Of a stretch of DNA of 64,000 nucleotides, positions 29,829 to 33,980 are shown one piece after another; within the stretch, counting starts at the first letter, position 1, and every line of letters begins with the position of its first letter. The DNA comes from the human T2T-CHM13v2.0 reference genome, Homo sapiens. Below the pieces are notes generated by a model. The model was given only the letters and a program-made list of their open reading frames with translations. It was not told the DNA's origin and did not search any database. The stretch lies in the NCBI RefSeq assembly GCF_009914755.1, contig NC_060930.1. One strand, given 5' to 3'. Made by a program: the position numbers and the translations under genes.

Positions 29829-30179
<351 letters not shown>

Positions 30180-30279
30180 TTAACTCAGGTAAGAGACCTT
30201 ATTTAGATTTAACCGATTTTTACATGCATTCTTTTTTTGGAAGGGGGTGTAGATTTTTCTTTTTTTCTTTTTTTTTTTT

Positions 30280-30690
30280 CCCCTTTTCTGTTTGGCTTAT
30301 GTAATGTAGCATGTTTTTAAGGTTCATGCAAATTACAGCATGTTTCAGAGCTTCATTCCTTTTTATGTCTGAATTAATATTCATTATACATATATACTAT
30401 ATTTTGCTTATCCATTCATCAGTTGATAGACACTTGGGTTGGTTCCACCTTTAACTAGTGTGAATAATGCTGCTATGAACATTGGTGGACAAGTTTCTGT
30501 TTGAGTCTCTGTTTTCAAGTATTTTGAGTATATACCACTGAGGAGTGAAATTGCTGGGTCATCTAGTAAGTCTATATTTAAGTTTTTGAGGAACCACCAA
30601 ACTATTTTCCACAGCAGCCCACCATTTTATATTCCCACCAGCAATGCCCAAGGGTTCCAACTTATCCACATTCTAACTAACACTGGTTTT
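30280..30690 (-). mobile_element. L1MB-type fragment carried as distal 3' transduction
   Basis: tatccattcatcagttgatagacacttgggttgg...gaggaaccaccaaactattttccacagc; lies inside SVA TSDs between two poly(T) tracts. Confidence 0.85.
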
Positions 30691-30789
30691 CTTTCTTTTT
30701 TTTTTTTTTTTTTTTACAGTTTCAACTATTAATTCAACACCTTAGTGAACACCTGCTCAGTGCGGGCATTATTATGTGTTAACTAGAGG

Positions 30790-33080
30790 TTTTTTTTAAA
30801 TTTTTTTTATTTTTATTTTTTTTATTGATCATTCTTGGGTGTTTTTGGGGGATTTGGCCGGGTCACAGGACAATAGTGGAGGGAAGGTCAGCAGATAAAC
30901 AAGTGAACAAAGGTCTCTGGTTTTCCTAGGCAGAGGACCCTGCGGCCTTCCGCAGTGTTTGTGTCCCTGGGTACTTGAGATTAGGGAGTGGTGATGACTC
31001 TTAAGGAGCATGCTGCCTTAAAGCATCTGTTTAACAAAGCACATCTTGCACCGCCCTTAATCCATTCAACCCTGAGTGGATACAGCACATGTTTCAGAGA
31101 GCACAGGGTTGGGGGTAAGGTCACTGATCAACAGGATCCCAAGGCAGAAGAATTTTTCTTAGTACAGAACAAAATGAAAAGTCTCCCATGTCTACCTCTT
31201 TCTACACAGACACGGCAACCATCCGATTTCTCAATCTTTTCCCCACCTTTCCCCCCTTTCTATTCCACAAAACTGCCACTGTCATCATGGCCCGTTCTCA
31301 ATGAGCTGTTGGGTACACCTCCCAGACAGGGTGGTGGCTGGGCAGAGGGGCTCCTCACTTCCCAGTAGGCGCGGCCGGGCAGAGGCGCCCCTCACCTCCC
31401 GGACGGGGCGGCAGGCCGGACGGGGGGCTGACCCCCCCCACCTCCCTCCCGGACGGGGCGGCTGGCCGGGCAGAGGGGCTCCTCACTTCCCAGTAGGCGC
31501 GGCCGGGCAGAGGCGCCCCTCACCTCCCAGACGGGGCGGCTGGCCGGGTGGGGGGCTGACCCCCCCACCTCCCTCCCGGACGCGGCGGCTGGCCGGGCGG
31601 GGGGCTGACTCCCCCACCTCCCTCCCGGACGGGGCGGCTGGCCGGGCAGAGTGGCTCCTCACTTCCCAGTAGGGGCGGCCGGGCAGAGGCGCCCCTCACC
31701 TCCTGGACGGGGCGGCTGGCCGGGCGGGGGGCTGACCCCCCCCCATCTCCCTCTCTCCCCGACGGGGCGGCTAGCCGGGCGGGGGGCTGACCCCCCCACC
31801 TCCCTCCCGGACGGGGTGGCTGGCTGGGCAGAGTGGCTCCTCACTTCCCAGTAGGGGCGGCCGGGCAGAGGCACCCCTCACCTCCTGGACGGGGCGGCTG
31901 GCCGGGCGGGGGGCTGACCCCCCCACCTCCCTCTCTCCCGGACGGGGCGGCTAGCCGGGCGGGGGGCTGACCCCCCCACCTCCCGCCCGGAGGGAGCGGC
32001 TGGCCGGGCAGAGAGGCTCCTCACTTCCCAGTAGGGGCGGCCGGGCAGAGGCGCCCCTCACCTGCCGGATGGGGCGGCTGGCCGGGCGGGGGGCTGACCC
32101 CCCCACCTCCCTCCTGGACTGAGCGGCTGGCCGGGCAGAGGGGCTCCTCACTTCCCAGTAGGGGCGGCCGGGCAGAGGCGCCCCTCACCTGCCGGACGGG
32201 GCGGCTGGCCGGGCGGGGGGCTGACCCCCCCACCTCCCTCCCGGACGAGGTGGCTGCCGGTAGGAGACGCTCCTCACTTCCCAGACGGGGTGGCTGCTGG
32301 GCGGAGGGGCTCCTCACTTCTCAGACAGGGCGGTTGCCAGGCAGAGGGTCTCCTCACTTCTCAGACGGGGCGGCCGGACAGAGATGCTCCTCACATCCCA
32401 GACGGGGCGGCAGGGCAGAGGTGCTCCCCACATCTCAGATGATGGGCGGCCGGGCAGAGATGCTCCTCACTTCCCAGATGTGATGGCGGCCGGGAAGAGG
32501 CGCTCCTCACTTCCTAGATGGGATGGCGGCCGGGCAGAGACGCTCCTCACTTTCCAGACTGGGCAGCCAGGCAGAGGGGCTCCTCACATCCCAGACGATG
32601 GGCGGCCAGGCGGAGACGCTCCTCACTTCCCAGACGGGGTGGCGGCCGGGCAGAGGCTGCAATCTCGGCACTTTGGGAGGCCAAGGCAGGCTGCTGGGAG
32701 GTGGAGGTTGTAGCGAGCCGAGATCACGCCACTGCACTCCAGCCTGGGCACCATTGAGCACTGAGTGAACGAGACTCCGTCTGCAATCCCGGCACCTCGG
32801 GAGGCCGAGGCTGGCGGGTCACTCGCGGTTAGGAGCTGGAGACCAGCCCAGCCAACACAGCGAATCCCCGTCTCCACCAAAAAAATACGAAAACCCGTCA
32901 GGCGTGGCGGTGCGCGCCTGCAATCGCAGGCACTCGGCAAGCTGAGGCAGGAGAATCAGGCAGGGAGGTTGCAGTGAGCCGAGATGGCAGCAGTACTGTC
33001 CAGCTTCGGCTCGGCATCAGAGGGAGACCGTGGAAAGAGAGGGAGAGGGAGACCGTGGGGAGAGGGAGAGGGAGAGGGAG
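30790..33080 (-). mobile_element. Full-length SVA (SVA_D-like)
   Basis: (CCCTCT)n head ~33020-33080, Alu-like ~32650-33020, GC-rich VNTR ~31320-32650, SINE-R ~30821-31320, AATAAA (tttatt 30821-30826), A-rich tail 30790-30820. Confidence 0.97.
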
Positions 33081-33193
33081 GGGGGTGTAGATTTTTCTAC
33101 AAAATTTTGTTATCCTTGTAGATTCAAGTAGCCATCACTGCAATTGGGATACAGAACTGTTCCAGCATGACCAAGAAATTCCCTTCTGCTACT

Positions 33194-33490
33194 TTTTGTT
33201 TGCATTTTTGAGACAGGATCTTGCTCTGTCGCCCAGCCTAGAGTGCAATGGTGCGATCATGGCTCGCTGCAGCCTGCAGCCTGGAACTGCTGGACTCAAG
33301 CAATCCTCCCATGTCAGCCTCCCAAATAGCTAGGGCTACTGCCACCACATTCATCTAATTTTCTATTTTTTATAGAGACAGAGTCTTGCTATGTTGCCCA
33401 GGCTGTTCTTGAACTCCTGGCCTCAAGTGATCCTCCTGTCTCAGCCTCCCAATGTGCTGAGATTACAGGTGTGAGCCACCACACCTGATC
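33194..33490 (-). mobile_element. AluJ
   Basis: gagacaggatcttgc...ggactcaagcaatcctccc. Confidence 0.9.
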
Positions 33491-33980
33491 CTCTTCTGCT
33501 GCTGGTTAATAGTTACACGCTTTTCCTAATGCTAATCACTGACAACTACTGATTAATCCACACATTTTATGTGTGCCTACTTTTAGAAAACCCAGCCAAA
33601 CATCATACCTTCCTAGGTGCAAGAATCCTATTTCCAACTTTTAAAATTCCCTATGGGCCTGAGTACTTAATGGGTGCTTAATAATGACTCCTTGAAACAC
33701 TAAGTAAAAAAAAAAAAATAGAACTCAGAGCTGAAAAACATATGAATCAAGATAATTTACAAAACAATAAAAAAGTTAAGACTACTTTCTTAAATATGAG
33801 CTCTTCAGGTTGACTAAGTGACGATTTATAATTTCTTTTCAGGGAGTCAGTACACCTAAAAGTGCTAATGATCTGAAATAAAGCTTCTCTAAAACATAAC
33901 TTTTTTTCAAAGCAATTCTACTAATATCTTTTCCTTTAATGACCTCTGTGATGTTGGTATGATGAAGTTTGTTATCCCTA

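What the first reader, a model, noticed from the sequence alone, without database searches (positions are those of the whole stretch)
30243..33098. SVA carrying a serial (two-generation) 3' transduction
Seen: the 18-bp TSD partner of the SVA head flank (33081-33098) is not next to the SVA tail but ~530 bp further out (30243-30260). In element orientation the insert reads SVA, A-tail (30790-30820), 74-nt unique/L2-like segment (30716-30789), A20 (30696-30715), ~410-nt L1MB fragment (30280-30690), final A-tail (30261-30279), TSD. The L1MC host sequence resumes on both sides of the TSDs. Established: SVA transcripts often read through their weak poly(A) site and L1-driven TPRT carries downstream DNA along. 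Inference: three A-tails record a grandparent, parent and this copy, so the insert barcodes two source loci. The sequence after the middle tail (gaaagaaaaccagtgtt) looks like an L1-endonuclease-type parental TSD.
Basis: partly seen in the sequence, partly recalled or inferred. Interest (0 to 1): 0.8.

Follow-up and report, generated by a model that had tools for sequence, protein, structure and literature searches.

The report
SVA with two stacked 3' transductions
A full-length SVA retrotransposon in a CASC15 intron carries two extra DNA pieces copied from chromosomes 9 and 7, each ending in its own A-tail, which is a clean but ordinary example of the known serial (concatenated) transduction process.

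Summary
An exact 18-bp target-site duplication (30243-30260 = 33081-33098) encloses a 2,820-bp insert. On the minus strand the insert reads: full-length SVA, A-rich tail, 74 nt, A20, 416 nt of L1, A12GA6.

The two extra segments map to different chromosomes of the same genome:
- The 74-mer maps to chr9:19,145,618-19,145,693 (74 of 76 aligned bases identical). There it ends 13 nt after a canonical AATAAA.
- The 416-mer maps to chr7:131,764,789-131,765,202 (99%; the next-best L1 copy is 78%). Its boundary lies at the edge of a (GAAA)n tract.

This rules out a single contiguous source. Neither origin has an SVA in CHM13, either at the junction or within 10 kb upstream, so the parent and grandparent copies are inferred and not seen.

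Two sibling copies support the mechanism. chr1:13.10 Mb carries SVA + 74 nt + A-tail. chr3:200.46 Mb carries that unit plus 299 nt of the chr1 flank, so it is a serial transduction whose parent is still in place.

Divergence suggests the lineage is millions of years old. Concatenated SVA transductions, SVA-less origins and the template-switch rival are all already in print. Interest is low.

The parts
33081..33098 (-). 5' copy of the target-site duplication (AGAAAAATCTACACCCCC in element orientation). The last 1-3 C are ambiguous with the start of the hexamer repeat.
33029..33080 (-). SVA (CCCTCT)n hexamer region at the 5' end, showing that the element is full length
   Evidence: (GAGAGG period 6, 33037-33084; 23-nt unit 33019-33083)
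32657..33028 (-). SVA Alu-like region
   Evidence: (Alu copies elsewhere match element positions 53-424 at about 70-90%), families D6/D7 (similarity to the neighbouring Alu)
31316..32656 (-). SVA VNTR (37-49-nt units, with higher-order 180-nt and 127-nt periods)
   Evidence: families D1-D5
30827..31315 (-). SVA SINE-R region. It has a 6-nt deletion near its 3' end relative to the chr1 and chr3 siblings.
   Evidence: (all 39 non-self hits scored, of 2047 candidates, are 97% identical over the full length)
30790..30826 (-). SVA poly(A) signal AATAAA (30821-30826) and degenerate A-rich tail 1, read as the genomic tail of the grandparent copy
30716..30789 (-). First transduced segment, 74 nt. Its origin is G000 chr9:19,145,618-19,145,693. 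The origin carries AATAAA ending 13 nt before the end of the segment; this copy reads AATTAA.
30696..30715 (-). Tail 2, pure A20: the poly(A) added at the chr9 site and carried as the genomic tail of the inferred chr7 parent
   Evidence: the siblings have A-runs at the same place
30280..30695 (-). Second transduced segment, 416 nt of L1 (sense relative to the SVA). Its origin is G000 chr7:131,764,789-131,765,202. It starts at the edge of the chr7 (GAAA)n tract.
30261..30279 (-). Tail 3 (A12 G A6), the poly(A) of the RNA that inserted here
   Evidence: not templated at chr7, where TGTGTGATTTT follows
30243..30260 (-). 3' copy of the target-site duplication

Best explanation
This is one L1-mediated (TPRT) insertion of a read-through SVA transcript that had already picked up downstream DNA once before.

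Step 1. An SVA sitting immediately upstream of chr9:19,145,618 was transcribed past its own AATAAA. The RNA was cleaved 13 nt after a genomic AATAAA, 74-76 nt downstream. This produced copies of the form SVA + A-tail + 74 nt + A(n).

Step 2. One such copy landed in the A-rich/(GAAA)n tract of an old L1 at chr7:131,765,20x.

Step 3. That copy was transcribed through its SVA signal, the 74-nt signal and its A-tail, and 416 nt into the L1. The RNA was polyadenylated at a site with no canonical hexamer but a GU-rich element just downstream. It inserted here at a TTCT/AC nick with an 18-bp target-site duplication.

What is shown: the insert structure, the two separate origins, the poly(A) signal at chr9, the inheritance of the SVA + 74-nt unit, and a sibling serial event with its parent in place.

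What is inferred: that SVAs once sat at chr9 and chr7 and were later lost (never fixed, or removed), and the order and number of generations.
For: Structure and TSD:
- The 18-mer occurs twice only, and 0 of 100 shuffles reach 2 matches.
- The host flanks are adjacent and collinear in all 7 of the 20 paralog loci that match both flanks.

Origins:
- The 135-nt probe (A20 + 74 nt + SVA end) gave 7 genome matches: itself; chr1 (94%, whole probe); chr3 (93%, probe 1-122); chr9 (97%, probe positions 21-96 only, which is the 74-mer without tails); and three chr10 hits to the SVA end only.
- The 416-nt probe matched chr7 at 99% over positions 2-416. The next best of the 40 scored hits (9245 candidates) is 78%.
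- Neither origin is followed by an A-run. chr9 continues TTCAGCTTGTGAG, and chr7 continues TGTGTGATTTT after four templated A.
- chr7 is an uninterrupted L1. 5 of 10 paralogs are collinear across the junction, and the two paralogs whose junction sequence was printed (L013, L016) have a native A-rich stretch where chr7 has (GAAA)n.
- At chr9, AATAAA ends 13 nt before the cleavage point.

Lineage:
- The chr1 copy is full length with its own TSD (GATATTTTAAT).
- The chr3 copy has a 15-nt TSD. It carries the chr1 tail structure plus 299 nt that match the chr1 flank at 98% over 1-299. The 38 other hits are 93% or less and cover at most 1-288.

Literature:
Against: - No SVA is present at either origin in CHM13. 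The junctions read straight through. In the 10 kb upstream of each origin, only the Alu-like part of the SVA finds matches (11 and 12 rows, all within element positions 53-424), and nothing matches the VNTR or SINE-R. Parent and grandparent are therefore not observed.
- The chr7-derived segment has none of 14 known poly(A) hexamers in its last 50 nt.
- The inferred nick at chr7 lies in (TTTC)n and lacks the usual A after the nick. An A-rich boundary is also what a template switch onto a poly(A) tail would use.
- Divergence implies an age of millions of years: 5 substitutions + 1 indel in 416 nt against chr7, and 8-12 private substitutions per ~590 nt in each lineage copy. Simple presence/absence polymorphism in living humans is therefore an unlikely reason for the empty sites, and loss has to be assumed twice.
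Confidence: 0.85

Rival explanations
1. Template switch for the last step. L1 ORF2p first copied an independent polyadenylated RNA from the chr7 L1. On reaching the (GAAA)n tract it jumped onto the poly(A) tail of an SVA + 74-nt RNA and copied that to its 5' end. One insertion, but no SVA ever sat at chr7.
For: - chr7 is SVA-free.
- The junction lies exactly at an A-rich/(GAAA)n tract that could pair with a T-rich cDNA end.
- A template switch between a processed transcript and an SVA_D RNA has been proposed for SVA-CKS1BP in PMC12593883 (Fig. 3d legend in section 7).
Against: - Read-through is much the commoner route in print: 27 concatenated events of 217 in PMC12593883, against a single switch example described in the passages I read.
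- The same lineage shows a read-through with its parent in place, chr1 to chr3.
- The chr7 piece is unspliced genomic L1 with no sign of being an independent transcript.
- The product is sequence-identical under both models, so nothing here discriminates directly.
Confidence: 0.08
2. Single transduction. The 74-mer, a native A-tract and the L1 piece lie side by side at one source locus downstream of one SVA.
For: None in this genome. It remains possible only if that locus is a structural variant absent from CHM13.
Against: - The two pieces map to chr9 and chr7.
- At chr9 the 74-mer is followed by TTCAGCTTG, not by A-rich L1 sequence. At chr7 the L1 continues collinearly with its paralogs on both sides.
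- The siblings carry the 74-mer + A-tail followed by different DNA.
Confidence: 0.01
3. Two independent insertions, or a chance repeat. The L1 piece + tail inserted first (or is local) and the SVA + 74 nt landed next to it later; the 18-mer match is coincidence.
For: None found.
Against: - The 18-mer sits exactly at the two outer boundaries and occurs nowhere else in 64 kb.
- No second duplication flanks either sub-part.
- The host repeat is contiguous across the site in paralogs.
- The L1 piece is 99% identical to chr7, while the 38 other L1 copies scored reach 80% or less, so it is not local old L1.
Confidence: 0.01

Closest known systems
Concatenated / serial SVA 3' transductions (PMC12593883, Mob DNA 2025; preprint 10.1101/2020.12.16.423102 of the HGSVC study, Fig. 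3D)
   Same: - SVA followed by transduced pieces from different loci, each closed by its own poly(A) tail, all inside one TSD.
- Offspring acting as source.
- Origins sometimes lacking an SVA.
- Very short transduced pieces that are the previous source's TSD. This may explain the 17-nt piece in the chr1 sibling.
   Different: - Those catalogues cover young polymorphic insertions. This lineage is a reference-genome copy with about 1.2-2% divergence from its origins, so it is probably millions of years old.
- Both of its source sites are empty in a complete genome.
- A search of supplement 1 of PMC12593883 for guessed GRCh38 coordinate prefixes gave no matching row. That is weak evidence, because the coordinates were guessed.
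SVA 3'-transduction families in the reference genome (Xing et al. 2006, PNAS, AMAC1 family)
   Same: Groups of reference SVAs sharing one 3'-transduced sequence. Here the chr1, chr3 and chr6 copies share the chr9 74-mer.
   Different: I could not read that paper: it is not held, and only a citing review's sentence was seen. Whether this group is listed there is unknown. What I say of its content is recalled.
L1 serial 3' transductions used to trace source-element pedigrees
   Same: The same mechanism: a weak own poly(A) signal, read-through, TPRT, and stacked tails.
   Different: The carrier is the non-autonomous SVA. Named from recall; no call tested it.
Template-switch chimeric retrocopies (SVA-CKS1BP in PMC12593883)
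   Same: Foreign sequence with its own A-tail placed 3' of a complete SVA within one TSD.
   Different: There the 3' part is a spliced mRNA, which excludes genomic read-through. Here it is unspliced genomic L1, so read-through is the simpler explanation.

Membership tests
SVA retrotransposon | Composite order: (CCCTCT)n, Alu-like, VNTR, SINE-R, AATAAA, A-tail | tested here: met
   Reading. TRF arrays. Alu matches to element positions 53-424. SINE-R 97% identical to all 39 other copies scored. AATAAA at 30821-30826.
L1-mediated (TPRT) insertion | Target-site duplication flanking the whole insert, terminal poly(A), T-rich/A nick site | tested here: met
   18-bp TSD. Tail A12GA6. The pre-insertion site reads ...TTTTGT|AGAAAAATC, giving a bottom-strand nick of TTCT/AC, close to TTTT/AA (consensus recalled).
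3' transduction | Non-element DNA between the element's own tail and the terminal tail, mapping elsewhere to a site not followed by poly(A) | tested here: met
   chr9 at 97% and chr7 at 99%. No A-run after either origin.
3' transduction | Source element present immediately upstream of the origin | tested here: not met
   No SVA at the junction or within 10 kb upstream at chr9 or chr7 in CHM13. Other human and ape genomes could not be searched. Such SVA-less origins are accepted in the literature as lost or rare sources (PMC12593883).
Serial / concatenated transduction | Two or more segments from different loci, each followed by its own poly(A) | tested here: met
   Two chromosomes; A20 and A12GA6.
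Serial / concatenated transduction | The intermediate unit (element + first segment + tail) exists as a retrotransposed copy elsewhere | tested here: met
   The chr1 copy has its own TSD. The chr3 copy is derived from chr1.
Template-switch chimeric retrocopy | The 3' part is an independent processed or polyadenylated transcript | not testable with these tools
   No transcript data or annotation for the chr7 site. There is no splice signature in the 416 nt.

The most novel reading that the evidence does not exclude
The lineage was a relay of short-lived source copies. At least two successive sources (chr9, then chr7), and possibly a third marked by the 17-nt piece in the chr1 copy, jumped and then vanished without fixing, while their offspring at chr1, chr3 and chr6 persisted. 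This would be an old, reference-genome example of the 'stealth driver / quickly lost source' behaviour that PMC12593883 proposes for young SVA_F1. The pedigree spans at least five loci and could be dated with complete ape genomes.
Probability: 0.5. Interest if true: 0.3.

Novelty: new member of a known kind. Interest (0 to 1): 0.2.

Why it matters
Stacked transductions act as natural barcodes that order retrotransposition events. Here they tie five loci (chr9, chr7, chr1, chr3, chr6) into one SVA pedigree, and they show that source copies can disappear while their offspring stay. That makes a useful worked example and a possible dating marker for hominid SVA activity. It adds no new mechanism, because every element of it is already described for polymorphic SVAs. 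I found nothing suggesting a functional consequence beyond an antisense intronic insertion in the lncRNA CASC15.

Tried and rejected
- Single contiguous source: rejected.
- Nested independent insertions or a chance TSD: rejected.
- SVA near the origins: looked for within 10 kb upstream and found none. The request for 20 kb was shortened by the tool to the upstream 10 kb. Downstream I saw only the ~1.5 kb of loci L004 and L009.
- The 17-nt extra piece of the chr1 and chr3 copies: I tried to map it, but there are 8 exact genome hits, 6 of them outside the lineage, so it cannot be assigned.
- Pfam support for the L1 assignment: the three whole-segment frames contain stops, and the one open 72-aa frame has no Pfam hit. 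The L1 assignment therefore rests on copy number (9245 candidates), paralog collinearity and my recall of ORF2.
- Literature searches:
  - 'SVA' + 'serial transduction': 1 irrelevant paper.
  - 'nested transduction': the HGSVC preprint.
  - 'source elements' + 'progeny': an L1 cancer paper, not used.
  - 'AMAC1': a review only.
  - 'CHM13' + transductions: 22 papers, of which I read passages of two.
  - 'CASC15' + 'SVA': 19 papers, 10 listed. None of the 10 listed titles concerns the retrotransposon.
- Xing 2006: not held.
- Supplement 1 of PMC12593883: searched for guessed GRCh38 coordinate prefixes. Only unrelated rows came up.
- Not determined: SVA subfamily (A-F), and presence of the insertion in apes or other humans.

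Full report
**1. What is in the sequence**

The window is CHM13 chr6:21,638,001-21,702,000. Read on the minus strand, positions 33098 to 30243 hold the following:
- an 18-nt repeat, AGAAAAATCTACACCCCC
- a (CCCTCT)n block
- an Alu-like stretch
- a 1.3-kb VNTR
- a SINE-R ending in AATAAA (30821-30826)
- a degenerate A-rich tail (to 30790)
- 74 nt of non-SVA DNA (30789-30716)
- a pure A20 (30715-30696)
- 416 nt of L1-like DNA (30695-30280)
- a tail, A12GA6 (30279-30261)
- the same 18-nt repeat (30260-30243)

The 18-mer occurs only at these two places in 64 kb. None of 100 shuffles gave two hits, and the repeat finder extends the pair to 22 nt at 95%. The SINE-R is 97% identical over its full length to all 39 other SVA copies that were scored, out of 2047 candidates.

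**2. Is it one insert?**

I searched the 111-nt left flank and the 120-nt right flank against the whole genome. I then compared both flanks with the 20 paralogous loci that came back.
- 7 of the 20 match both flanks. In all 7 the two matches are adjacent and collinear, and in L047 they overlap exactly over the 18-mer.
- 13 of the 20 match only one flank.

The host repeat was therefore continuous, with one copy of the 18-mer, and the 2,820 bp between the duplications is a single insertion. The pre-insertion site reads ...TTTTGT|AGAAAAATC. This gives a bottom-strand nick of TTCT/AC, close to the L1 endonuclease preference (consensus recalled).

**3. Where the extra pieces come from**

The window's own genome can be searched.

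*The 74-mer.* A 135-nt probe covering A20 + 74 nt + SVA end returned 7 matches:
- itself
- chr1:13,101,114-13,101,247 (94%, whole probe)
- chr3:200,463,270-200,463,390 (93%, probe 1-122)
- chr9:19,145,618-19,145,693 (97%, probe positions 21-96 only, which is the 74-mer without either tail)
- three chr10 hits to the SVA end alone

At chr9 the 74-mer lies in unique DNA. It is preceded by ...CTTTTTGTAA and followed by TTCAGCTTGTGAG. A canonical AATAAA ends 13 nt before the point where the A20 starts in the copies. The window copy reads AATTAA there, while chr1 and chr3 keep AATAAA.

*The 416-mer.* This probe returned chr7:131,764,789-131,765,202 at 99% over positions 2-416. The next best of the 40 scored hits (9245 candidates) is 78%. 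At chr7 the L1 continues on both sides. Upstream of the match lies a (GAAA)n microsatellite, in two runs of 20 and 56 nt. 5 of 10 L1 paralogs are collinear across this point. The two whose junction sequence was printed (L013, L016) carry a native A-rich stretch there, for example ATCAAAAAAACAGAAAATAA in L013. Downstream of the match chr7 reads AAAA then TGTGTGATTTT, not a long A-run.

**4. No source SVA is present**

Both origins read through without an SVA. In the 10 kb upstream of each, only the Alu-like part of the element finds matches. These are 11 rows for chr9 and 12 rows for chr7, all within element positions 53-424 at 69-91% identity, which means ordinary Alus.

**5. Siblings show the mechanism at work**

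*The chr1 copy.* It is full length; its 5' 694 nt are 96.7% identical to the window SVA. It is flanked by GATATTTTAAT on both sides. After the 74-mer it carries an A-run of about 31, then a further 17 nt and A12 before its TSD. PMC12593883 reports that such ultra-short pieces are often the TSD of a previous source. The 17-mer has 8 exact genome hits and cannot be placed.

*The chr3 copy.* It is 5'-truncated in the VNTR and has a 15-nt TSD (AAAAAATCTAGGGTG). It carries the whole chr1 tail structure plus 299 nt that match the chr1 flank at 98% over 1-299. The 38 other hits (an LTR-like repeat) are 93% or less and cover at most 1-288. It ends in another A-run.

chr1 to chr3 is therefore a serial transduction with the parent still present, in the same lineage. 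SVA + 74 nt + A(n) is demonstrably a mobile unit.

**6. Age**

- Window against chr7: 5 substitutions and one 1-nt indel in 416 nt.
- 74-mer against chr9: 74 of 76 aligned bases identical.
- chr3 against the chr1 flank: 98%.
- SINE-R + tail + 74-mer among chr6, chr1 and chr3: these differ pairwise by 3.1-3.7%, with 12, 8 and 10 private substitutions per ~590 nt.

At roughly 0.5-1 x 10^-9 substitutions per site per year (recalled), with two diverging lineages, this points to several million years, with a wide error because the counts are small. I therefore infer an older SVA lineage, probably fixed. Loss of the source copies is a more likely reason for the empty origins than present-day polymorphism. 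This is inference; ape and other human genomes could not be searched here.

**7. Mechanism and rivals**

*Best reading (0.85): two successive read-through transductions.* Points in its favour are set out in sections 3 and 5. There are three weak points:
- The parents are unseen.
- The chr7-derived end has none of 14 known poly(A) hexamers in its last 50 nt, although a GU-rich element follows the cleavage point.
- The chr7 boundary lies in a purine tract, which would serve a template switch equally well.

*Template-switch rival (0.08).* It yields an identical product and has a published SVA precedent (SVA-CKS1BP, PMC12593883). It is less frequent in print, and the 416 nt show nothing that calls for it.

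*Single-locus transduction, nested insertions and chance.* Each is at 0.01 or below.

An aside I cannot test: the AATAAA to AATTAA change in the 74-mer of this copy would weaken that signal and could have favoured read-through if it was already present in the chr7 parent. The chr1 parent read through with an intact signal, so the change is not required.

**8. Comparison with what is known**

- PMC12593883 (section 7 and passages) reports several relevant things:
  - 27 concatenated events among 217 transduction-bearing SVAs
  - origins lacking an SVA
  - ultra-short transductions equal to source TSDs
  - template switching
  - the idea of short-lived sources
- PMC10681720 (passages) uses transductions to find hot sources.
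- Xing et al. 2006, the catalogue of reference SVA 3' transductions, is not held, so I cannot say whether this group is already listed.
- My searches found no paper naming this locus. A search of supplement 1 of PMC12593883 for guessed coordinates found nothing relevant.

**9. Verdict**

The caveats are that both source copies are inferred and that three tails give only a minimum generation count. This is a tidy new example of a well-described process. Interest is 0.2.

Noticed in passing
L003 (G000 chr3:200,461,770-200,464,890), about 1169-2485: The sibling SVA is 5'-truncated in the VNTR and has four A-runs: its own tail, about A24 after the 74-mer, A9 after a 17-nt piece, and a terminal run. 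It also carries 299 nt of chr1 flank, and its TSD is AAAAAATCTAGGGTG. It records at least three transduction steps.
   Followed up: partly
L002/L050 (G000 chr1:13.096-13.103 Mb): This is a full-length sibling SVA with the 74-mer and TSD GATATTTTAAT. It has an extra 17 nt + A12 between the A-run and the TSD, and its 5' flank holds a local duplication of AAGCTTAAGATATTTTAAT. The 17-mer has 8 genome hits and cannot be mapped.
   Followed up: partly
window 30766-30771 (minus strand): The poly(A) signal of the 74-nt segment is AATTAA in this copy. It is AATAAA at the chr9 origin and in the chr1 and chr3 copies. Whether the change arose before or after insertion is unknown.
   Followed up: partly
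window 30846-30850: There is a 6-nt deletion (TCTGCA/G) plus a G>A change near the 3' end of the SINE-R, relative to the chr1 and chr3 siblings.
   Followed up: no
window 32534-33131: The RefSeq 'enhancer' feature in the hub annotation covers the SVA 5' end (part of the VNTR, the Alu-like region, the hexamer) and the first bases of the flank. That annotated element is therefore SVA sequence.
   Followed up: no
window 29850-30150 and 33200-33500: Alu elements sit about 100 nt from each side of the insertion site, with the A-rich tail of the left one at 30111-30149. Only about 110 nt of old host repeat remains on either side.
   Followed up: no
window 31396-32113: The SVA VNTR shows higher-order periodicity: a 180-nt unit x 4.0 at 93% matches, and a 127-nt unit x 2.7 at 31938-32284.
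   Followed up: no
L009 (G000 chr7:131,763,289-131,766,702), locus + strand 1429-1508: A (GAAA)n microsatellite (runs of 20 and 56 nt) has grown at the native A-rich stretch of an old L1. An Alu lies directly upstream of it.
   Followed up: partly
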